A DNA stretch of 8,466 nt from a virus. Taxonomy: Duplodnaviria > Heunggongvirae > Uroviricota > Caudoviricetes. The translations under genes and the position numbers were made by a program. Below the pieces are notes generated by a model. That model was not told where the DNA came from. It saw only the letters and a program-made list of their open reading frames with translations, and made no database searches. Shown here in pieces: positions 1 to 8,466 of the stretch (its first letter is position 1; the number at the start of each line of letters is the position of its first letter). Location of the stretch: the IMG/VR virus record IMGVR_UViG_2693429635_000026; one strand, given 5' to 3'.

Positions 1-483
1 ATGACGAAGAAAAAAGCACATAAACCTGGTTCAGCGACCATCGCGCTTAACAAGCGCGCCCGTCACGAATACTTTATCGAAGAAGAGTTCGAAGCGGGAC
101 TTGCCCTGCAAGGCTGGGAGGTTAAATCCCTGCGCGCAGGAAAAGCCAATATCAGCGACAGCTACGTCCTTCTGCGTGACGGAGAGGCATTTCTGTTTGG
201 CGCTAACATCACGCCAATGGCCGTGGCCTCCACGCATGTGGTGTGCGATCCTACCCGTACCCGCAAGTTACTTCTCAACCAGCGCGAACTGGACTCATTG
301 TACGGTCGCGTCAATCGAGAAGGCTATACCGTAGTGGCGCTCTCCCTGTACTGGAAAAATGCCTGGTGCAAAGTGAAAATCGGCGTCGCCAAAGGTAAAA
401 AACAGCACGATAAACGTTCAGATATCAAAGAACGCGAATGGCAGGTGGATAAAGCACGTATCATGAAAAACGCCCACCGTTAA
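1..483 (+). CDS. smpB: SsrA-binding protein SmpB (trans-translation factor), complete 160 aa
   Basis: ATG at 1, TAA at 481-483. The 160-aa translation ([30 protein letters not shown]...[10 protein letters not shown]) matches enterobacterial SmpB as I recall it, and the gene sits immediately upstream of ssrA as in the conserved smpB-ssrA arrangement. Confidence 0.96.
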
Positions 484-644
484 ACCTGCACTCCAATTAT
501 TGACCAGTTCCTCACCGCGCCTCCCTCTCCGGCGGCGCGAATCAACATCTTATTGGCTATCACATCCGACACAAATGTTGCCATCCCATTGCTTAATCGA
601 ATAAAAATCAGGCTACATGGGTGCTAAATCTTTAACGATAACGC

Positions 645-690
645 CATTGAGGCTGGTCATGGCGCTCATAAATCTGGTATACTTACCTTT
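645..690 (+). promoter_or_regulatory. putative sigma70 promoter for ssrA (extended -10)
   Basis: TGgTATACT at 675-683 is an extended -10 element ending about 15 nt upstream of the mature tmRNA 5' end. The -35 is weak or ambiguous (TGGTCA at 654-659 with 18-bp spacing). Assigned from position and motif only. Confidence 0.4.
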
Positions 691-697
691 ACACATT

Positions 698-1060
698 GGG
701 GCTGATTCTGGATTCGACGGGATTTGCGAAACCCAAGGTGCATGCCGAGGGGCGGTTGGCCTCGTAAAAAGCCGCAAAAAATAGTCGCAAACGACGAAAA
801 CTACGCTTTAGCAGCTTAATAACCTGCTTAGAGCCCTCTCTCCCTAGCCTCCGCTCTTAGGACGGGGATCAAGAGAGGTCAAACCCAAAAGAGATCGCGT
901 GGAAGCCCTGCCTGGGGTTGAAGCGTTAAAACTTAATCAGGCTAGTTTGTTAGTGGCGTGTCCGTCCGCAGCTGGCAAGCGAATGTAAAGACTGACTAAG
1001 CATGTAGTACCGAGGATGTAGGAATTTCGGACGCGGGTTCAACTCCCGCCAGCTCCACCA
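698..1060 (+). ncRNA. ssrA: tmRNA (transfer-messenger RNA, SsrA), full length 363 nt
   Basis: Starts GGGGCTGATTCTGGATTCGACGGG (tRNA-like 5' end). The internal tag frame GCA AAC GAC GAA AAC TAC GCT TTA GCA GCT TAA at 787-819 encodes the degradation tag ANDENYALAA. The 3' end is GGTTCAACTCCCGCCAGCTCCACCA (T-arm, acceptor, CCA) at 1036-1060. Confidence 0.95.
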
Positions 1061-1188
1061 ATCATGATTGGACGGTGTAAGGACAACACCAACAAAAACA
1101 GGAAGTTAGCAGTCTCAGCAGGACACCGACCAGACGGTGAGGAGACAAAAAAGGATACGCAAAGGAGCCGCGGCTCTCAAGTGTGAAA

Positions 1189-1217
1189 GAAGCCCGCAAA
1201 TTGCGGGCTTTTTTATT
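1189..1217 (+). terminator. rho-independent terminator downstream of ssrA
   Basis: GC-rich hairpin AGCCCGC-aaatt-GCGGGCT (1191-1209) followed by a T-run TTTTTTATT. Confidence 0.6.
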
Positions 1218-1269
1218 GATCAGTCAACAATAAACAGTAACCGAATGAGAATTTAATAAGGATATTCAT

Positions 1270-2301
1270 ATGGAAGCTACTGTGGATTCGATTGATTTTC
1301 TGATCCGTAGTGAAGATGATTTTCTAAACTTTCTGGAAGAAATGAAAGCCCGAGAGGGGCTTGATTCTAAAGAGTTTATTTTCCCTAACGTAAAGTTTGC
1401 AGGCTGGCCATCCTTAGACATAAATGTAAAAGGAGAGCGGTATCATTCATCAATTACATCAGCAATGTTGTTTGGTATGTCAATGCTCAACGAGGAGATA
1501 CAGCGGGCGTTTGCAACCATACGATACGGATCGCAGAATCTTCAACGCTTGACTAATGAAGACAAGCAACGACTTGATATAAATTTTAAAATTAGCGAAG
1601 GTTCTAGTGATGCGGAAGGCACCACTGACAAGATCATCAACGCAGTAACTGATTTTTTGCGAGATACTATGTCTGGACTGAACGGCTGGCAGAAAATGCT
1701 TGTTATAATCACAATGGTTGGCGCGGCCAGCACATGTGGTTATCACTACATTTCAGAAAATGCCGTAACAGAAAGACATGCAACTGATCGGCAGGTTGAA
1801 ATTGCAAAAACCACATCCGATGGCATAAACAAAGCCATAGAAGCAACATTAGATTATAAAATCTATGGGAAATCAGCGATTAGCGATAAAGTTACTAGTC
1901 ACGGACAAGCAGGTAAAAGTGCTTTAGTGAAGCAATTAGCTGCTGATCCTACTGTCGAAACCGTGACTTTAGGAAATGAGAAACTAACACGACAAGACCT
2001 AAATACCTACAACAGCCGACAATCTGTAGATAGAGAACGTAAAGAACGAACTGATATATTTTCCATCAAAGGTGTAACCAGAACAGGGCCAACAAATCAG
2101 GATATTAATATTAACGTTGTTAGGGTCTCTAATGACGAATGCTTCACAATCAAAGCTTCAGCTGATGTTATCACCCAAGATGAGTTGACAGCTATTGTTG
2201 ACGCTTTGTCAAACAACTCTCATATTAAAATCAGTTACTTAGAGGTAATTGAAAAGGGTGCTGTTTCTATAGGTCAGTTCAACACTATTGTTTCAGAATA
2301 A
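1270..2301 (+). CDS. hypothetical protein, 343 aa, with a central hydrophobic (putative transmembrane) segment; no recognised domain
   Basis: Long uninterrupted ORF with a Shine-Dalgarno-like AAGGA about 8 nt upstream of the ATG (TAAGGATATTCATATG). AT-rich codon usage consistent along its length. The stretch WQKMLVIITMVGAASTCGYHYI near residues 140-161 is hydrophobic. The antisense ORFs 1480..1746 and 1542..1733 are shadows. Confidence 0.72.
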   Translation: MEATVDSIDFLIRSEDDFLNFLEEMKAREGLDSKEFIFPNVKFAGWPSLDINVKGERYHSSITSAMLFGMSMLNEEIQRAFATIRYGSQNLQRLTNEDKQRLDINFKISEGSSDAEGTTDKIINAVTDFLRDTMSGLNGWQKMLVIITMVGAASTCGYHYISENAVTERHATDRQVEIAKTTSDGINKAIEATLDYKIYGKSAISDKVTSHGQAGKSALVKQLAADPTVETVTLGNEKLTRQDLNTYNSRQSVDRERKERTDIFSIKGVTRTGPTNQDININVVRVSNDECFTIKASADVITQDELTAIVDALSNNSHIKISYLEVIEKGAVSIGQFNTIVSE

Positions 2302-2352
2302 TCACTTAACCCCATTTATGTCGGTTGAGGTTATAAGTCACGGAGACCAGAT

Positions 2353-2697
2353 ATGTCCTTAAAGTATGCACATGAAAAATTTCATACTGCAGTACTTACT
2401 CTTGCGGGCCATGGAAGTATTCAAGAACGCTTGATTAATTCGTATGTTTTTAGCCTTGGGCATCTTAAAACAGCCGATGATATTCCAAATGCCTTACAAA
2501 GCAGGTTCGATGAATTATGTAAGGAACTGACTAAGTTTGATGCCACTGGCGATGAGGGGCGAGTTCAAGCAACAGTATCAAAACTTAACGATTTCGAGAT
2601 CAATAAACTGATCGAAGATATTGTCAGTCTTAACGATGATATTTGCATGAAATTGGCTCTGACGGATGAGACTTACCAAGACATACACCAAAGTTAA
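2353..2697 (+). CDS. hypothetical protein, 114 aa, acidic and probably alpha-helical; likely co-transcribed with the upstream 343-aa ORF
   Basis: ATG at 2353 preceded by GGAGA about 7 nt upstream. Same strand as ORF 1270..2301 with a 51-bp gap, and followed by a hairpin terminator. No recognised motifs. Confidence 0.65.
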   Translation: MSLKYAHEKFHTAVLTLAGHGSIQERLINSYVFSLGHLKTADDIPNALQSRFDELCKELTKFDATGDEGRVQATVSKLNDFEINKLIEDIVSLNDDICMKLALTDETYQDIHQS

Positions 2698-2724
2698 TTG
2701 ATTAAATTCAAAAAGTTAACGTTC

Positions 2725-2750
2725 AACCAGCCAGTTTTTGGCTGGTTTAT
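2725..2750. terminator. putative bidirectional hairpin terminator between convergent genes
   Basis: AACCAGCC-agttttt-GGCTGGTT (8-bp stem, 2725-2747) followed by TTTATTGTC on the plus strand and flanked by an A/T tract on the other side. It lies between the stop of ORF 2353..2697 (+) and the stop of ORF 2782..2994 (-). Confidence 0.45.
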
Positions 2751-2781
2751 TGTCTTATAATATTCTTGCTCGAATGATGCA

Positions 2782-2994
2782 CTATTTATGATGTAATCCG
2801 GACATCAGTTCATGGACAAGATTATCTCTTTCATTGTGTTGCAACCGTAAATGCATAGCAAAAAGGTGAGCACTATCCTCATTCCTCTTCAAGCCATGCT
2901 GTTCAAGATACCCGAAAAAACGGCTTCTCTTATCCGCTATTTCCTGAGTCTGACGTGCAACATTTACCAAATTTTCTAGCGTTTTTCTTGGCAT
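2782..2994 (-). CDS. hypothetical small protein, 70 aa
   Basis: The minus-strand ATG at 2992-2994 is preceded by a strong Shine-Dalgarno AGGAGG (revcomp of CCTCCT at 3002-3007) at good spacing. Basic and His-rich; no family recognised. Confidence 0.5.
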   Translation of the reverse strand: MPRKTLENLVNVARQTQEIADKRSRFFGYLEQHGLKRNEDSAHLFAMHLRLQHNERDNLVHELMSGLHHK

Positions 2995-3192
2995 ACTATT
3001 TCCTCCTGAAATTGTTGTAATTCACTAGGATATTCATTTTAATTTGTATCATTTAGTACCAAAACCGCTATCAATTAACAAAGCCATCGTTGTGGTTTAC
3101 CTTGCAGCCGTTTTTTGTCATTGACTCTATGTGAAAATAATGAATCATCATGAGATTGGCTCACACGTTCTTGAATTCGACGAGCTGTGTCT

Positions 3193-3747
3193 TTATTTAT
3201 CTCCTGCCGGAAACCTCTGATACAAAGTCGATACGCCAACATCATAGATAATCGCAACTTTCTGGCGCGGAACTCCTGATGCAATTAATCGTCCGGCTTG
3301 TGCCCATTGTTCTGGTGTAAGTTTGGGACGACGTCCACCAATTCGTCCCTGTGCGCGAGCAGCTTCCAGTCCAGCTTTTGTTCGTTCAACAATCAGTTCT
3401 CGTTCCATTTCAGCCAGGGCCCCCATCACATGAAAGAAAAAGCGCCCCATTGGGGTACTGGTATCAATTGAATCCGTCAGACTACGAAAGTTGATGCCTC
3501 GTTCGCGCAACTCCTCCACCAGCACGACAAGATGCCGCATACTGCGCCCCAGTCGGTCCAGTTTCCAGACCACCAGCGTATCGCCTGCCGATAATGTCCT
3601 GAGCAGTTTTTTCAGTCCCGGCCTTTCGGACTTTGTACCGCTTATCTTGTCTTCAAAAATCAGCTCGCATCCTGCACAGTTCAGCGCATTACGTTGTAGA
3701 TCTGTGTTCTGGTCATTTGTTGACACACGTACATAGCCAATAAGCAT
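3193..3747 (-). CDS. pin: serine-recombinase DNA invertase, Pin/Gin/Hin/Cin family (184 aa)
   Basis: Translation from the internal Met (MLIGYVRVSTNDQNTDLQRNAL...GDTLVVWKLDRLGRSM...GINFRSLTDSIDTS...MGRFFFHVMGALAEMERELI...) has the resolvase/invertase catalytic N-terminus with the active-site Ser in VRVSTNDQ and a C-terminal HTH-like region. It is close to E. coli Pin as I recall it. I take the start as the ATG at 3745-3747 (SD AGGGAGA upstream) rather than the upstream Met at 3783. A gix/pix-like site lies 55 bp upstream. Confidence 0.93.
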   Translation of the reverse strand: MLIGYVRVSTNDQNTDLQRNALNCAGCELIFEDKISGTKSERPGLKKLLRTLSAGDTLVVWKLDRLGRSMRHLVVLVEELRERGINFRSLTDSIDTSTPMGRFFFHVMGALAEMERELIVERTKAGLEAARAQGRIGGRRPKLTPEQWAQAGRLIASGVPRQKVAIIYDVGVSTLYQRFPAGDK

Positions 3748-3773
3748 GGTAGATCTCCCTGACAAAAGCAGGA

Positions 3774-4268
3774 ATGATGCCATTTGCTCGTTATTTCTGC
3801 ATTTTCATAAACGTTGGTTTGGGAGAAGCGGCAAAACGAAATGTGGGCAACGGGGAAAACCAAATCCCTGATATGTCTTTCTGGACGGTTACTGGTGGCA
3901 ATGGAAATTTTGTGATTCGTCAACCTGACGGGCTAATCATTCAGATGGTTACTGTAAGTATAAGCGGTCCAGTGGCGATGAATGGAATGACTGATAATGC
4001 TTATGCCATTACAGGTTCTAATAAGTCTTATATTGCCACAGCCACATTGCCCTTTGTATTTCCTAATAAGGTGCTGGGCGTTATCCCTCTGGTATCAACA
4101 ACAGCTTATGGTGGTGTATCCAGTAATATTACAGGTTCATACGCGACGGCGGTTTGTTCTTTTGCCGCTGTCAGGGGGAATAATACGATTGTGTTCAAAG
4201 TCGACAAACCACTGAATGCAGCCTTTCCTTCAGATACCAGCGTCTCAGCGTTAATCATTGGACGGTAA
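3774..4268 (+). CDS. silent tail-fibre variable C-terminal cassette (Sv copy) with no constant N-terminal region
   Basis: From about 3816 onward the reading frame is identical to the C-terminal roughly 150 aa of the tail fibre gene at 7063..7806 ([17 protein letters not shown]...SALIIGR). The first roughly 14 codons (MMPFARYFCIFINV) are antisense read-through of the pin leader and are not part of the homologous sequence. Probably not expressed in this orientation. Confidence 0.5.
   Translation: MMPFARYFCIFINVGLGEAAKRNVGNGENQIPDMSFWTVTGGNGNFVIRQPDGLIIQMVTVSISGPVAMNGMTDNAYAITGSNKSYIATATLPFVFPNKVLGVIPLVSTTAYGGVSSNITGSYATAVCSFAAVRGNNTIVFKVDKPLNAAFPSDTSVSALIIGR
3802..3827 (+). other. invertase crossover site A (gix/hix/pix-like 26-bp site, proximal to pin)
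   Basis: TTTTCATAAACG-TT-GGTTTGGGAGAA. The half-sites fit the TTnTCnnAAACC pattern of Hin/Gin-family sites around a central 2-bp crossover. The inner half plus crossover (TTGGTTTGGGAGAA) is identical to sites B and C. Confidence 0.6.
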
Positions 4269-4270
4269 GA

Positions 4271-4714
4271 ATGAACTCAGTATTCTTTTCACCCGCAAGT
4301 AAAAGTTTTTATCTGCAAGAATTGTTTCCAGAATATGAGGATGCGGGAACGCTTCCTGATGATGTTATTGAAATTACCAGAGAAACATATGAGCAATTTC
4401 TTGGGCTGCATCCAGAAGGGAAAGAAATTGGCGCTGACAGTTCAGGACGGCCAATATGGATTAATTCCCCGCCGCCTTCAAAAGAGGATGAGATGCTGGC
4501 GGCTGAAATGAAAAAGATATCTTTGGTTTCAGAAGTCAATACCTACATCAATACCCATCAGTGGCCTGGCAAAGCTGCTATTGGTCGTCTGAAAGGTTAC
4601 GAGCTGGAACAATATAATTTATGGCTGGATTATCTGGACGCACTGGAACTGGTTGATACCTCCAGTGCTCCAGATATTGAATGGCCTACGCCTCCGGTAG
4701 TTCAGGCCAGATGA
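4271..4714 (+). CDS. tail fibre assembly protein (Mu U-like chaperone), copy A
   Basis: 147 aa with the Tfa-type C-terminal motif ...DTSSAPDIEWPTPP. Starts 2 bp after the Sv stop, suggesting translational coupling. Identical to the ORF at 6617..7060 (-). Confidence 0.82.
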   Translation: MNSVFFSPASKSFYLQELFPEYEDAGTLPDDVIEITRETYEQFLGLHPEGKEIGADSSGRPIWINSPPPSKEDEMLAAEMKKISLVSEVNTYINTHQWPGKAAIGRLKGYELEQYNLWLDYLDALELVDTSSAPDIEWPTPPVVQAR

Positions 4715-5291
4715 CATCCGGCGCGGTGCTGGTATCTGTTGCAGTCACCGCGTCAATGTAATCCAGCACAGCGTTAAGCCGGGTTGTTTCTGCCTGCGTC
4801 AGCTTCCGCCCGGCCTGCAATTTCAGCTGAATCAGACTAATGGAAGCCATAGCAGCATCAATCAGTGACTGGCGCCGTACTTCTGCCGCGTCTACTGCGG
4901 CGTTATGCTGTGCCTCAGTATCGGTCACCCATTTCTCACCATCCCATTTATCGTATGACGTTAACGGGGCGATAGTGGTTGTATTTTCAGGGTAATCACC
5001 CGGAACTGTGATTTCTTTTGATTCTCCTGTTTCGGTGCTATAGACGATTTCACCGCGATGGTCTGGCACATATTCCCATGAGTTAAAATCTGCAGAACGG
5101 CAAATTGCATAACCAGCTTTATATGAGCCAGGAGCATCTAAACAGGAACATGCCGGGATACCAACACCCACAGCAAGATATTCAGTTGATGTGGAAATAT
5201 ATTCCCGTGTTTCACCATCATAATTATAAACGGTAATGTCTCCGGCCTTTGTGGCGATGAGTTCATTATTTAATACAGCTTTACTTATCAT
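4686..5291 (-). CDS. tail fibre assembly protein (Mu U'-like chaperone), copy A
   Basis: 201 aa ending ...DTSTAPDVIWPELPEA (Tfa family C-terminal motif). Identical to the ORF at 6040..6645 (+). Its 3' end overlaps the 3' end of 4271..4714 convergently by 29 bp. Confidence 0.82.
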   Translation of the reverse strand: MISKAVLNNELIATKAGDITVYNYDGETREYISTSTEYLAVGVGIPACSCLDAPGSYKAGYAICRSADFNSWEYVPDHRGEIVYSTETGESKEITVPGDYPENTTTIAPLTSYDKWDGEKWVTDTEAQHNAAVDAAEVRRQSLIDAAMASISLIQLKLQAGRKLTQAETTRLNAVLDYIDAVTATDTSTAPDVIWPELPEA

Positions 5292-5570
5292 GCAGCCCTC
5301 ACAATATAATTAAAGGCGATGTTACGGGAGCGGGTTTCAGATGCTGTGCGAACTGAGCGAGATGCGTCGAATGTCCAGTTATAAGCGCCATAACCCTCAA
5401 TAATTTCGGCTTCCTTTAGACCTGTAGATAATACTTGCCCATGTTGACTAAATGGCCCTGAACTAAGTACGTCTCTAAAAAGCTGGGTACGCCCAAAAGA
5501 ACCAACAATATTCTGAATTGCATCATTCTGTGCAGATAATAAGTTACGACCAGAGTCAATCCCGCGCCCA
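5288..5570 (-). pseudogene. 5'-truncated copy of the tail-collar-type variable cassette Sv' (C-terminal roughly 93 codons, no start)
   Basis: Reverse complement of 5761..6043, which is the C-terminal part of ORF 5576..6043 (...ETRSRNIAFNYIVRAA). The duplication breakpoint at 5570/5571 cuts the cassette mid-gene, and there is no in-frame Met in the retained part. Confidence 0.55.
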
Positions 5571-5584
5571 TTGGTTTGGGAGAA
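5559..5584 (+). other. invertase crossover site C (conserved inner half and crossover, degenerate outer half)
   Basis: ATCCCGCGCCCA-TT-GGTTTGGGAGAA. The crossover and inner half are identical to sites A and B, but the outer half is a poor match. Recombination with site B would fuse the constant part of S in frame to Sv'. Confidence 0.55.
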
Positions 5585-6043
5585 GGTTCGGCATTACCCG
5601 TTGGTGTGCCTGTTCCGTGGCCTTCCGCCACTCCGCCAACGGGGTGGCTAAAATGTAACGGAGCAGTATTTTCTTCTGAAAAGTACCCAAATCTGGCAAA
5701 GGCTTACCCAACATTAAAATTACCAGATTTACGCGGTGAATTTATTCGTGGCTGGGATGATGGGCGCGGGATTGACTCTGGTCGTAACTTATTATCTGCA
5801 CAGAATGATGCAATTCAGAATATTGTTGGTTCTTTTGGGCGTACCCAGCTTTTTAGAGACGTACTTAGTTCAGGGCCATTTAGTCAACATGGGCAAGTAT
5901 TATCTACAGGTCTAAAGGAAGCCGAAATTATTGAGGGTTATGGCGCTTATAACTGGACATTCGACGCATCTCGCTCAGTTCGCACAGCATCTGAAACCCG
6001 CTCCCGTAACATCGCCTTTAATTATATTGTGAGGGCTGCATGA
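5576..6043 (+). CDS. alternative tail-fibre variable C-terminal cassette Sv' (phage tail-collar-like receptor-binding domain), currently unfused
   Basis: The translation carries motifs I recall from tail-fibre C-termini of the tail-collar type (ALPVGVPVPWPSATPPTGWLKCNGAVFSSEKYPNLA...LPDLRGEFIRGWDDGRGIDSGR...ETRSRNIAFNYIVRAA). The ORF-track start is a TTG lying inside site C, so the real product would be made only as a fusion after inversion. Its stop overlaps the downstream tfa start (ATGA). Confidence 0.75.
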   Translation: MGEGSALPVGVPVPWPSATPPTGWLKCNGAVFSSEKYPNLAKAYPTLKLPDLRGEFIRGWDDGRGIDSGRNLLSAQNDAIQNIVGSFGRTQLFRDVLSSGPFSQHGQVLSTGLKEAEIIEGYGAYNWTFDASRSVRTASETRSRNIAFNYIVRAA

Positions 6044-6645
6044 TAAGTAAAGCTGTATTAAATAATGAACTCATCGCCACAAAGGCCGGAGACATTACCG
6101 TTTATAATTATGATGGTGAAACACGGGAATATATTTCCACATCAACTGAATATCTTGCTGTGGGTGTTGGTATCCCGGCATGTTCCTGTTTAGATGCTCC
6201 TGGCTCATATAAAGCTGGTTATGCAATTTGCCGTTCTGCAGATTTTAACTCATGGGAATATGTGCCAGACCATCGCGGTGAAATCGTCTATAGCACCGAA
6301 ACAGGAGAATCAAAAGAAATCACAGTTCCGGGTGATTACCCTGAAAATACAACCACTATCGCCCCGTTAACGTCATACGATAAATGGGATGGTGAGAAAT
6401 GGGTGACCGATACTGAGGCACAGCATAACGCCGCAGTAGACGCGGCAGAAGTACGGCGCCAGTCACTGATTGATGCTGCTATGGCTTCCATTAGTCTGAT
6501 TCAGCTGAAATTGCAGGCCGGGCGGAAGCTGACGCAGGCAGAAACAACCCGGCTTAACGCTGTGCTGGATTACATTGACGCGGTGACTGCAACAGATACC
6601 AGCACCGCGCCGGATGTCATCTGGCCTGAACTACCGGAGGCGTAG
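6040..6645 (+). CDS. tail fibre assembly protein (U'-like), copy B, cognate chaperone of Sv'
   Basis: 201 aa, Tfa C-terminal motif, start overlapping the Sv' stop (ATGA), SD GAGGG upstream. Confidence 0.88.
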   Translation: MISKAVLNNELIATKAGDITVYNYDGETREYISTSTEYLAVGVGIPACSCLDAPGSYKAGYAICRSADFNSWEYVPDHRGEIVYSTETGESKEITVPGDYPENTTTIAPLTSYDKWDGEKWVTDTEAQHNAAVDAAEVRRQSLIDAAMASISLIQLKLQAGRKLTQAETTRLNAVLDYIDAVTATDTSTAPDVIWPELPEA

Positions 6646-7060
6646 GCCATTCAATATCTGGAGCACTGGAGGTATCAACCAGTTCCAGTGCGTCCAGATA
6701 ATCCAGCCATAAATTATATTGTTCCAGCTCGTAACCTTTCAGACGACCAATAGCAGCTTTGCCAGGCCACTGATGGGTATTGATGTAGGTATTGACTTCT
6801 GAAACCAAAGATATCTTTTTCATTTCAGCCGCCAGCATCTCATCCTCTTTTGAAGGCGGCGGGGAATTAATCCATATTGGCCGTCCTGAACTGTCAGCGC
6901 CAATTTCTTTCCCTTCTGGATGCAGCCCAAGAAATTGCTCATATGTTTCTCTGGTAATTTCAATAACATCATCAGGAAGCGTTCCCGCATCCTCATATTC
7001 TGGAAACAATTCTTGCAGATAAAAACTTTTACTTGCGGGTGAAAAGAATACTGAGTTCAT
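6617..7060 (-). CDS. tail fibre assembly protein (U-like), copy B, cognate chaperone of the expressed tail fibre
   Basis: 147 aa. Starts 2 bp after the stop of the tail fibre gene at 7063..7806 on the same strand. Tfa-type C-terminus. Confidence 0.88.
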   Translation of the reverse strand: MNSVFFSPASKSFYLQELFPEYEDAGTLPDDVIEITRETYEQFLGLHPEGKEIGADSSGRPIWINSPPPSKEDEMLAAEMKKISLVSEVNTYINTHQWPGKAAIGRLKGYELEQYNLWLDYLDALELVDTSSAPDIEWPTPPVVQAR

Positions 7061-7062
7061 TC

Positions 7063-7806
7063 TTACCGTCCAATGATTAACGCTGAGACGCTGGTATCTG
7101 AAGGAAAGGCTGCATTCAGTGGTTTGTCGACTTTGAACACAATCGTATTATTCCCCCTGACAGCGGCAAAAGAACAAACCGCCGTCGCGTATGAACCTGT
7201 AATATTACTGGATACACCACCATAAGCTGTTGTTGATACCAGAGGGATAACGCCCAGCACCTTATTAGGAAATACAAAGGGCAATGTGGCTGTGGCAATA
7301 TAAGACTTATTAGAACCTGTAATGGCATAAGCATTATCAGTCATTCCATTCATCGCCACTGGACCGCTTATACTTACAGTAACCATCTGAATGATTAGCC
7401 CGTCAGGTTGACGAATCACAAAATTTCCATTGCCACCAGTAACCGTCCAGAAAGACATATCAGGGATTTGGTTTTCCCCGTTGCCCACATTTCGTTTTGC
7501 CGCTTCTCCCAAACCAAGGTTTTCGAGAGCCGTTTTCACCGTGCCATCAGATTTGATATCGCCAAACGGATTCTTGCGGCTTAACAGCAGCGCACGAAGC
7601 GCGGTAAGCAGCTGGTCATGCCGCCCCTTCTCCAGGCTGGCACCGGATGCCTCCACCACGCTGCAGAGTTCTTCCTGCAACATGTCAAAGTAGTCATCAT
7701 CCAGATCGGTGGCAGGTGTGCCGGTCTGGGGGTTACCACGGGTAAAACCGTTCTTACCCGCGCCGAACTTATCCTTCTGCGCGGTTTTCGTGTCTATACG
7801 ATGCAT
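7063..7806 (-). CDS. phage tail fibre protein S (constant N-terminal part 7518..7806 fused to variable part Sv 7063..7517), 247 aa
   Basis: ATG at 7804-7806 (minus strand) with SD GGAG upstream, immediately after the stop of the upstream tail gene. Crossover site B lies inside the ORF at the ...ENLG|LGEAA... junction, as expected for Mu S, P1 and e14-type invertible tail fibre genes. Confidence 0.88.
7504..7529 (+). other. invertase crossover site B (gix/pix-like, inside the tail fibre gene at the constant/variable boundary)
   Basis: Plus strand TTCTCCCAAACC-AA-GGTTTTCGAGAG. Its reverse complement CTCTCGAAAACC-TT-GGTTTGGGAGAA is inverted relative to sites A and C, with both half-sites fitting the TTnTCnnAAACC pattern. 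Confidence 0.65.
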
Positions 7807-7809
7807 GGA

Positions 7810-8464
<655 letters not shown>

Positions 8465-8466
8465 CT

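What the first reader, a model, noticed from the sequence alone, without database searches (positions are those of the whole stretch)
5559..5772. Duplication breakpoints: one at the crossover dinucleotide, the other mid-codon inside Sv'
One end of the inserted inverted copy is joined precisely at the TT crossover of site A (3814). The other end stops inside Sv' (5570, partner 5761, within the ...GWDDGRG... codons) and abuts the TT of site C. The outer half of site C (ATCCCGCGCCCA) is therefore just Sv' coding sequence and a poor half-site. This is the footprint expected if invertase-mediated recombination used the real site on one side and a cryptic secondary site inside Sv' on the other. The same junction is also what a chimeric assembly join would look like.
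Basis: inference. Interest (0 to 1): 0.5.

Follow-up and report, generated by a model that had tools for sequence, protein, structure and literature searches.

The report
Probable assembly join in Pin segment

Summary
Window 3814-5571 is the exact reverse complement of 5760-7517, with no mismatch. One end lies at the TT crossover of a Pin site. The other lies inside an Sv' codon (5570|5571, partner 5761).

Window 1-5571 is 100% identical to an E. coli genome with the single-copy segment in one orientation. Window 5571-8466 is 100% identical to a genome with it in the other. The proposed cryptic site does not resemble a crossover site: -43 bits, 28th percentile of positions in the segment, centre TC against TT. 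Neither the junction nor its reciprocal occurs in 5,426 complete E. coli genomes or in the other collections searched.

A duplication needs an exchange between two DNA copies. Wild-type invertases are built to avoid that, and this Pin lacks the M114V activating change.

Public assemblies of this same segment break at the crossover. They also carry redundant copies: a scaffold joined by a single n, a join made without any N, and 1.9-kb false plasmids. The 190-nt spacer equals the block that aligns between different tail-fibre cassettes.

Best reading: assembly artefact of inversion heterogeneity (about 0.6). A real Pin-initiated illegitimate exchange remains possible (about 0.2). Only reads can decide.

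The parts
3193..3747 (-). pin, a DNA invertase of 184 aa with catalytic Ser9; His106 and Met114 are wild type
   Evidence: Pfam Resolvase 1.5e-51 plus HTH_7. E 1.3e-93 to Gin structure 3UJ3; the query has Met where that activated Gin has Val114. Annotated pinE in L001 and L002.
3802..3827 (+). Crossover site A (pin-proximal), TTTTCATAAACG TT GGTTTGGGAGAA
   Evidence: Half-site scores 14.6 + 18.6 bits, the best site in the window. The inner half is identical to the e14 P-segment repeat TTGGTTTGGGAGAAGG (PMC12529663).
3814..5570 (+). Left arm: second, inverted copy of most of the segment. It holds Sv from 3829, U at 4271-4714, U' at 4686-5291 (-), and Sv' lacking its first 62 codons at 5288-5570 (-).
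   Evidence: Exact reverse complement of 5761-7517. Colinear and 100% identical with the single-copy orientation of L001.
5570..5571 (.). The novel junction ...ATCCCGCGCCCA|TTGGTTTGGGAGAAGG
   Evidence: Window 1-5571 = L001 at 100% and window 5571-8466 = L002 at 100%. The junction is absent from 5,426 complete E. coli genomes and from the genome, metagenome, viral, plasmid and phage collections.
5559..5584 (+). Site C: a hybrid with a perfect inner half and an outer half that is not site-like
   Evidence: -15.0 + 18.6 bits.
5571..5760 (+). 190-nt spacer: crossover TT, inner half-site and Sv' codons 1-62, the conserved tail-collar module
   Evidence: Pfam Collar at residues 10-57 of Sv'. In the spread sample of 60 rows from 1,718 E. 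coli records, about three quarters align only over query 1 to 190-214, i.e. up to window 5760-5784.
5747..5772 (+). Proposed cryptic site Q (reverse strand ATCCCGCGCCCA TC ATCCCAGCCACG)
   Evidence: -43.0 bits, 28th percentile in the segment, 5 + 1 consensus matches.
5761..7517 (+). Right arm: rest of Sv' (ORF 5576-6043), U' at 6040-6645, U at 6617-7060 (-), and the Sv part of the fibre gene
   Evidence: ORFs. Caudo_TAP in both chaperones, Collar in Sv'. 100% identical to L002.
7504..7529 (+). Crossover site B, TTCTCCCAAACC AA GGTTTTCGAGAG, inverted relative to A and C
   Evidence: 18.6 + 14.4 bits.
7063..7806 (-). Expressed tail-fibre fusion Sc-Sv (247 aa)
   Evidence: ORF. Gp53-like_C at E 1.3e-4, below the Pfam cut-off. 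Same gene as L002 5807-6550.
7810..8382 (-). ymfQ / Mu gp48-like baseplate gene, cut at its 5' end by an IS3-family element
   Evidence: Phage_Mu_Gp48 8.7e-27. Homology to prophages without the IS ends at 8370-8373.
8371..8466 (+). First 93-96 nt of an IS3-family element; the window stops here, as a short-read contig end would
   Evidence: L059 and L001 continue into the transposase.

Best explanation
The real biology here is one ordinary e14-type Pin system. A 1,947-bp invertible segment (5571-7517: Sv' U' / U Sv) lies between two inverted 26-bp crossover sites, next to pin, in a decayed Mu-like prophage remnant beside ssrA. The sequenced culture probably held both orientations. The assembly then laid the same segment down twice. 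One contig ran from pin through site A into the segment in orientation 1 and stopped 190 nt before its end. The right-hand breakpoint is where contigs of this locus habitually start. The left-hand breakpoint coincides with the end of the conserved collar block that aligners see between unlike cassettes. Shown: the identities, the non-site character of Q, the absence of the junction elsewhere, and the same kinds of mis-join in other public assemblies. Inferred: that this particular join was made by software. The exact pipeline step is unknown.
For: (1) Window 1-5571 is 100% identical to L001 (orientation 1) and 5571-8466 is 100% identical to L002 (orientation 2). The two arms have zero mismatches. 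(2) Both orientations occur in near-identical genomes, so the segment flips in nature. (3) The junction is a singleton, absent from all collections searched. No other of 93 loci has a perfect inverted repeat over 1 kb. The only other 100% repeat is L004, which is a scaffold. (4) L004, identical DNA from another isolate, is two contigs joined by a single n. One starts directly after the crossover TT. They overlap redundantly by 618 nt in the wrong relative orientation. (5) In L084, pieces end and start exactly at AA/TT next to runs of 100 N. At 7909|7910 a symmetric 215-nt junction fragment is abutted without any N to a piece starting TTGGTTTGGGAGAAGG. That is the same kind of join, mid-Sv' to crossover TT. 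(6) Five pieces among about 100 loci begin at the crossover. (7) The segment also appears as false 1.9-kb circular plasmids in complete assemblies. (8) A published warning exists that alternative-orientation contigs can create artefactual duplications in such phage regions (PMC4134206). (9) The spacer, window 5571-5760, equals the generic alignment block between heterologous cassettes. (10) The window ends 93-96 nt inside an IS element, which fits a short-read contig, and short reads cannot resolve a perfect 1.76-kb inverted repeat. (11) Q is not site-like and the reciprocal junctions are absent.
Against: There is no N and no sequence overlap at the join, so software must have abutted two contigs, or filled a 1-nt gap, without leaving a trace. 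I could not identify the source assembly or its pipeline. The contig is continuous into unique DNA on both sides. I cannot show why the left contig should stop exactly at 5570. The two numerical coincidences I found (the end of the conserved block; 190 = 2 x 95 with about 95 nt of IS at the contig end) are post hoc. A junction that starts exactly at the crossover dinucleotide is also what Pin cleavage would leave.
Confidence: 0.62

Rival explanations
1. The duplication is real and Pin started it. Two sister copies of the locus were in opposite inversion states. Pin cleaved the true site A at its TT in one copy, and that end was joined to a position inside Sv' of the other copy. The partner was either a very poor quasi-site (TC centre, with the mismatch later repaired to TT) or a non-specific break. 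The product is pin | Sv U U' Sv'(truncated) | hybrid site C | Sv' U' U Sv | Sc.
For: The junction lies exactly at the crossover dinucleotide of a perfect half-site. One of the two central bases matches. The sequence is continuous with no N. Use of quasi-sites with localized conversion of the central dinucleotide is documented for the related Cin (Iida and Hiestand-Nauer 1986 and 1987, listed as references 50 and 51 of PMC4134206; I recall their content from memory and did not read them). Pin is intact.
Against: Q scores at the 28th percentile of random positions, and 213 better candidates with an AA/TT centre were not used. The event needs intermolecular exchange, whereas the invertasome makes intramolecular inversion the exclusive outcome for wild-type enzymes (PMC3798978). 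This Pin has Met114 and His106. There is no second occurrence and no reciprocal product. A crossover-flush end is equally a habitual contig end.
Confidence: 0.2
2. The junction is real but the duplication is not. In part of the culture, Pin inverted only the 190-bp stretch between a true site and Q. This creates the same junction read on the other strand. The assembler then walked a graph holding three or more co-existing states and passed through the 1,757-bp part twice.
For: Inversion of 5571-5760 between the crossover and Q yields exactly CTTCTCCCAAACCAA|TGGGCGCGGG, the reverse complement of the observed junction (derived from the sequence). It needs only an intramolecular reaction.
Against: It requires at least three states at appreciable frequency in one culture. 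190 bp is very short for an invertasome loop (own knowledge). Q is not site-like. The partner junctions of such an inversion are not found anywhere.
Confidence: 0.06
3. A real inverted duplication arose by replication template switching or fold-back priming, unrelated to Pin or seeded by a Pin-made break at the crossover. A 3' end at 5571 folded back on its own strand at 5760/5761 and copied it.
For: The geometry, inverted arms with a short unique loop and 1 nt of microhomology (T at 5571 pairing with A at 5760), is that of fold-back inversions (mechanism from general knowledge).
Against: The far end of the copy would then have to rejoin pin exactly at the site A crossover, which a fold-back does not explain. 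One nucleotide of microhomology is no evidence. No parallel case was found in 5,426 genomes.
Confidence: 0.05

Closest known systems
P segment / Pin of the e14 cryptic prophage of E. coli K-12 (Plasterk and van de Putte 1985; PMC12529663)
   Same: The 15/16-nt inner repeat TTGGTTTGGGAGAAG(G) is the same. The system has a pinE-annotated invertase, an invertible segment of about 1.8-1.9 kb carrying two opposed tail-fibre C-terminal cassettes with their chaperones, and a constant fibre 5' part outside the segment.
   Different: It lies beside ssrA in a Mu-like (gp48/ymfQ) remnant cut by IS3, not at icd. The window shows a second inverted copy of 1,757 bp, which e14 and all 5,426 complete genomes lack.
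Gin / G segment of phage Mu and Cin / C segment of phage P1
   Same: Pin gives E 1.3e-93 over 181 residues to Gin. The logic is the same: Sc fused to Sv or Sv', with U or U' behind it. The P1 C segment carries internal inverted repeats of 0.62 kb (own knowledge), so long repeats inside invertible DNA are not unheard of.
   Different: In P1 the repeats are the shared 5' parts of the two alternative cassettes and each abuts a full site. Here the arms are whole identical cassette sets, and the middle site has only one good half.
Quasi-site (cixQ) recombination by Cin (Iida and Hiestand-Nauer, Cell 1986; Mol Gen Genet 1987)
   Same: A true site is recombined with an unrelated-looking sequence. The central dinucleotide can differ and be converted.
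   Different: Those events were intramolecular inversions or deletions at sequences chosen partly by their central dinucleotide (from memory). Here the product is a duplication, the partner is no better than a random position, and its centre differs.
Spurious alternative-orientation contigs and artefactual duplications in invertible prophage tail-fibre regions (E. coli EC958, PMC4134206)
   Same: The type of locus and the 26-bp sites are the same, with both orientations in one culture. The authors explicitly warn that merging such contigs gives artefactual duplications. Concrete parallels were found here in L004, L084 and the 1.9-kb false plasmids.
   Different: In those cases the redundancy is visible as separate contigs, N gaps or extra records. 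In the window the join is seamless.
Multiple-inversion systems (Min of plasmid p15B, shufflons)
   Same: More than two crossover sites and several cassettes lie next to one invertase.
   Different: Each cassette there is distinct and preceded by a full site (own knowledge). Here the cassettes are identical copies and site C has only one functional half.

Membership tests
Din-family (Gin/Cin/Pin/Hin) invertible tail-fibre segment | Small serine recombinase with a resolvase catalytic domain, catalytic serine and C-terminal HTH, adjacent to the segment | tested here: met
   Resolvase 1.5e-51, HTH_7 3.6e-13. 181-residue alignment to Gin with Ser9 conserved.
Din-family (Gin/Cin/Pin/Hin) invertible tail-fibre segment | Two 26-bp (12-2-12) crossover sites in inverted orientation with identical central dinucleotides | tested here: met
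   Sites A and B score 33.2 and 33.0 bits. They are the two best of 8,441 positions, with centres TT and AA.
Din-family (Gin/Cin/Pin/Hin) invertible tail-fibre segment | Opposed alternative fibre C-terminal cassettes, each followed by a tail-fibre assembly gene, with the constant 5' part outside the segment | tested here: met
   ORFs. Collar and Gp53-like_C cassettes and two Caudo_TAP genes.
Din-family (Gin/Cin/Pin/Hin) invertible tail-fibre segment | Both orientations found in otherwise identical DNA | tested here: met
   L001 against L002 and L059, 99.9-100% identical flanks.
Din-family (Gin/Cin/Pin/Hin) invertible tail-fibre segment | Fis-bound recombinational enhancer inside the 5' part of the invertase gene | not tested
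   No Fis-site model was run. Inferred only from the close similarity to Gin.
Product of invertase recombination at a quasi (secondary) site | One side of the novel junction is a true half-site cut at the crossover dinucleotide | tested here: met
   The junction lies at the TT of a perfect inner half. This is also the usual position of contig ends.
Product of invertase recombination at a quasi (secondary) site | The partner sequence resembles a crossover site or at least shares the central dinucleotide | tested here: not met
   -43 bits, 28th percentile, 6/24 matches, TC against TT.
Product of invertase recombination at a quasi (secondary) site | The geometry can be reached by an intramolecular reaction (inversion or deletion) | tested here: not met
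   The structure holds two copies of 1,757 bp. Inversion or deletion cannot create a copy. Wild-type invertases are restricted to intramolecular inversion (PMC3798978).
Product of invertase recombination at a quasi (secondary) site | Junction or reciprocal junction seen in independent genomes | tested here: not met
   none found.
Multiple-inversion system (three or more functional sites) | Every cassette is preceded by a complete site, and the cassettes differ | tested here: not met
   Outer half of site C scores -15 bits. The arms are 100% identical.
Assembly artefact of inversion heterogeneity | Each side of the join is colinear and identical with one of the two single-copy orientations | tested here: met
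Assembly artefact of inversion heterogeneity | The join uses positions where contigs of this locus end in other assemblies, and comparable mis-joins exist | tested here: met
   L004, L019, L037 and L084 pieces start at the crossover. L084 has an abutment without N at 7909|7910. False 1.9-kb plasmids. This is met for the right side of the join. For the left side there is only the coincidence with the block boundary.
Assembly artefact of inversion heterogeneity | The junction is unsupported by raw reads, and the arms have single-copy depth | not testable with these tools
   No reads are available and the source assembly was not identified.

The most novel reading that the evidence does not exclude
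The duplication is real. It would be a natural product of a wild-type DNA invertase acting between two sister copies in opposite states, joining a true crossover site to a sequence with no site character. Both ends of the invertible DNA would then carry the same Sv cassette. Pin inversion between sites A and B would therefore put Sv next to Sc in either state. That would phase-lock expression of the Gp53-like fibre fragment, which resembles the e14 StfE2 protein reported to block phage T2 adsorption.
Probability: 0.2. Interest if true: 0.55.

Novelty: not a real feature. Interest (0 to 1): 0.18.

Why it matters
If the join is an artefact, the value is practical. Invertible prophage segments are a recurrent source of false duplications, false hybrid sites and false small plasmids in public E. 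coli assemblies, and this window is a seamless example that annotation pipelines would take at face value. If it were real, it would be a rare natural record of a Fis-dependent invertase making an intermolecular, duplicative product at a non-site. It would also show a simple way to lock a phase-variable tail-fibre or defence gene. That would interest people working on serine recombinase fidelity and on cryptic-prophage defence.

Tried and rejected
(1) I tried to find the source assembly. Look-ups of the junction-spanning ORFs (71 aa and 52 aa) found nothing on record. The 155-aa Sv' and the 343-aa cargo protein are too widespread to point to it.

(2) I searched for the junction as an exact pattern in genome, metagenome and viral contigs. 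The only hit was a 20-mer in Sphingobacterium, which is about what chance predicts for 596 Gb.

(3) I searched for the reciprocal junctions (outer half of site A joined to the reverse complement of the Sv' 5' part; Sv' 5' part joined to the outer half of site B). None were found.

(4) I considered whether the structure is a natural three-site, Min-like system. I rejected this because the arms are identical and site C has one dead half.

(5) I considered whether a plain de Bruijn graph of just the two orientations could give this path. I rejected it on logic: no k-mer links the Sv' interior to the crossover, so either a physical junction or an abutment of contigs is required.

(6) Numerology: the contig runs 93-96 nt into IS3, and 190 = 2 x 95, which would fit K = 96. 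I kept this only as a weak lead because it is post hoc.

(7) I looked for an activating mutation in Pin that would allow promiscuous recombination. None is present at Met114 or His106.

(8) PADLOC and Pfam searches of the three cargo ORFs gave no hit.

Full report
WHAT IS IN THE WINDOW. The window runs as follows.
- smpB at 1-483.
- The tmRNA gene ssrA at 698-1060.
- Three ORFs with no family match at 1270-2301, 2353-2697 and 2782-2994(-).
- A DNA invertase gene, pin, at 3193-3747(-). It has Resolvase plus HTH_7 domains and gives E 1.3e-93 to Gin.
- Tail-fibre cassettes and tail-fibre assembly genes.
- The constant 5' part of the fibre gene, running leftward from its start at 7806 to site B (about 7518).
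- A Mu gp48/ymfQ-like gene at 7810-8382(-).
- The first 93-96 nt of an IS3-family element.
This is a decayed Mu-like prophage remnant beside ssrA.

CHECK OF THE OBSERVATION. Window 3814-5571 is the reverse complement of 5760-7517 without one mismatch. The first mismatches are at 3813 and 5572. I built a half-site matrix from 40 distinct natural half-sites, taken from 43 sites found in the related loci. The consensus is TTCTCCCAAACC, and the centre is AA/TT in 37 of 43 sites. The matrix gives two top-scoring full sites: A at 3802-3827 (33.2 bits) and B at 7504-7529 (33.0 bits). It also gives a hybrid, C at 5559-5584, whose inner half is perfect (18.6 bits) and whose outer half is not site-like (-15.0 bits). 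The inner half TTGGTTTGGGAGAAG is the published e14 P-segment repeat (PMC12529663). The inner breakpoint falls on the third base of an Asp codon in ...GWDDGRG... of Sv'. One T:A pair is ambiguous.

THE KEY COMPARISON. Window 1-5571 is 100% identical to E. coli 602687 (L001). There the segment is single-copy and reads pin | Sv U U' Sv'-Sc. Window 5571-8466 is 100% identical to E. coli PS1Thumoskin9 (L002), which carries the same segment in the other orientation, pin | Sv' U' U Sv-Sc. In L002 the outer half of site A is followed directly by TTGGTTTGGGAGAAGGTTCGG. In L001 the Sv' sequence runs straight through the breakpoint as ...CCCGCGCCCATCATCCCAGCC.... The window is therefore orientation 1 up to 190 nt before the end of the segment, followed by orientation 2 from the crossover TT onward. 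The true invertible unit is 5571-7517, 1,947 bp.

IS THE JUNCTION SEEN ELSEWHERE? No. In 5,426 complete E. coli genomes, every alignment of a 160-nt probe across the junction stops at the junction. Exact-pattern scans of species-representative genomes, metagenome contigs and viral contigs found nothing. The one exception was a 20-mer in Sphingobacterium, which is about what chance predicts for that database size. The plasmid and phage collections also lack it. Of 93 related loci, none has a perfect inverted repeat above 1 kb. The natural duplicates seen are 78-95% identical.

TEST OF THE CRYPTIC-SITE IDEA. Only one register can yield the observed junction: 5747-5772, which reads ATCCCGCGCCCA TC ATCCCAGCCACG on the reverse strand. 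It scores -43 bits. That is the 28th percentile of all positions in the single-copy segment, so it is worse than a typical random position. It has 6 of 24 consensus matches, the number expected by chance, and its centre is TC against TT. In the same segment, 213 positions with an AA or TT centre score better. The junctions that a reciprocal or inversion product would carry are absent from viral contigs and from all complete E. coli genomes.

A duplication also cannot arise from inversion or deletion. It needs an exchange between two copies of the locus. [quoted passage not shown] This Pin has Met at position 114, where the activated Gin in the 3UJ3 structure has Val, and it has His106. The mechanism is not excluded. 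Cin is known to use quasi-sites; Iida and Hiestand-Nauer 1986 and 1987 are listed as references in PMC4134206, though I recall their content from memory. But nothing in the sequence supports it beyond the crossover-flush end.

WHY THE CROSSOVER-FLUSH END IS NOT DIAGNOSTIC. In a culture that holds both orientations, the sequence common to both states begins exactly at the TT. So contigs of the segment start there. This is seen repeatedly in public data.
- L004 has DNA identical to the window but comes from another isolate. It is a scaffold of two contigs joined by a single n. One contig starts GGTTTGGGAGAAGCGG, directly after the TT. The two overlap redundantly by 618 nt and are wrongly oriented relative to each other.
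- L019 and L037 also start at the crossover.
- L084 contains four runs of 100 N. Its pieces end ...CCCAAACCAA and start TTGGTTTGGG.... At 7909|7910 a symmetric 215-nt junction fragment (100 nt, 15 shared nt, 100 nt) is abutted without any N to a piece starting TTGGTTTGGGAGAAGG. This gives ...CTGAAAAGTA|TTGGTTTGGG, a mid-Sv' to crossover join of the same kind as in the window.
- Several 'complete' assemblies list the segment itself as a circular 1.9-kb plasmid. CP148528.1 equals window 5583-7505 at 99.5%. Inverted sites cannot excise a circle, so this is a graph artefact.
- The EC958 genome paper describes such spurious alternative-orientation contigs. [quoted passage not shown]

THE OTHER BREAKPOINT. 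I aligned the start of the Sv' cassette against all complete E. coli genomes and listed 60 rows spread across the 1,718 matching records. About three quarters of those rows align only from query position 1 (the TT) to position 190-214. Three rows end exactly at position 190. This stretch is the conserved tail-collar module (Pfam Collar at residues 10-57). The 190-nt spacer between the arms is therefore the block an aligner reports between unlike cassettes. This offers a software route to both breakpoints, namely trimming or joining at alignment-block ends in a reference-guided or merging step. The window also stops 93-96 nt inside an IS element, as short-read contigs do. Short reads cannot resolve a perfect 1.76-kb inverted repeat. 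Both points are suggestive and post hoc. I could not identify the source assembly.

VERDICT. The most likely explanation (about 0.6) is that a single, ordinary Pin segment present in both orientations was assembled twice and the two pieces were abutted. A real duplication started by Pin cleavage at site A and completed by illegitimate joining to a sister copy is possible (about 0.2). So are a real 190-bp inversion junction combined with a mis-walk of the assembly graph (about 0.06) and a replicative fold-back (about 0.05).

If the structure were real, it would have one notable consequence. Both ends of the invertible DNA would carry Sv, so inversion between A and B would no longer change the fibre gene. 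The Gp53-like fusion, which resembles the e14 StfE2 protein reported to block T2 adsorption (PMC12529663), would be locked on.

Only read-level data or a PCR across 5570|5571 can settle the matter.

Noticed in passing
L104 (CP148528.1, 1-1923), L105 (NZ_CP148539.1); also NZ_CP148540.1 and NZ_CP148330.1: Records of 1.88-1.92 kb, deposited as complete circular plasmids where I checked the record (L104, L105), consist of nothing but this invertible tail-fibre segment. L104 equals window 5583-7505 at 99.5%, which is the segment minus the 12-nt inner half-sites. Inverted sites cannot excise a circle, so these look like assembly-graph artefacts that entered plasmid databases.
   Followed up: partly
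L004 1-6779 (IMGVR_UViG_2693429713_000022): This contig has DNA identical to the window but is a scaffold of two contigs joined by a single n at 2346. One piece starts directly after the crossover TT. The pieces share 618 nt redundantly and are in the wrong relative orientation. It also ends exactly at window position 1 (the smpB ATG), which suggests the window is a provirus cut-out of the same kind.
   Followed up: yes
L084 7440-12300 (GCA_019583665.1, VDBH01000001.1): This is a scaffolded e14-region prophage with four 100-N runs. Sites A and B are each duplicated, and the pin 5' end is repeated. There are two cassette sets, 95% identical over 1,351 nt in direct orientation, plus a hybrid site TTCTGAAAAGTA TT GGTTTGGGAGAA formed by a join without any N.
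   Followed up: partly
window 5571-5784: The first 190-214 nt of the Sv' cassette (tail-collar module, up to the GWDDGRG motif) align at 75-90% identity in most of the sampled hits among 1,718 E. coli chromosome and plasmid records. Homology then stops abruptly. This is a sharp mosaic boundary between a conserved adaptor part and a variable receptor-binding part.
   Followed up: partly
window 1270-2994: Three ORFs (343 aa, 114 aa, and 70 aa on the minus strand) between ssrA and pin have no Pfam or PADLOC match. The trio travels as a unit. It is found next to pin-type segments, next to lambdoid side-tail-fibre genes, and at other chromosomal sites (L094-L103). The 343-aa protein is listed in 4,671 blocks of the contig index.
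   Followed up: partly
L085-L093: The identical 155-aa Sv' product, followed in most of these loci by a 200-aa and a 147-aa tail-fibre assembly gene, sits in P2-like, Mu-like and E217-like prophages with different invertases. The whole cassette set therefore moves between unrelated tail modules.
   Followed up: no
window 7063-7806 (-): The currently fused fibre protein Sc-Sv has a weak Gp53-like_C match (E 1.3e-4, below the Pfam cut-off). This is the domain reported in e14 StfE2, which a 2025 paper says blocks phage T2 adsorption after Pin-type inversion (PMC12529663).
   Followed up: no
window 8370-8466 and 7810-8382: An IS3-family element starts at about 8371-8374. It removes the first codons of the ymfQ-like gene (190 aa here, 194 aa in intact prophages) and the rest of the prophage. 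The window ends 93-96 nt inside it.
   Followed up: partly
L003 7560-7579 (Sphingobacterium siyangense): This is the only exact match to a 20-nt junction pattern in 596 Gb of genomes. About one such match is expected by chance, and the organism is unrelated.
   Followed up: no
L038 2366-3043 and 4752-5428: A 678-nt inverted repeat at 94% identity overlaps the invertase gene, which suggests a second, inverted pin copy in that prophage contig.
   Followed up: no
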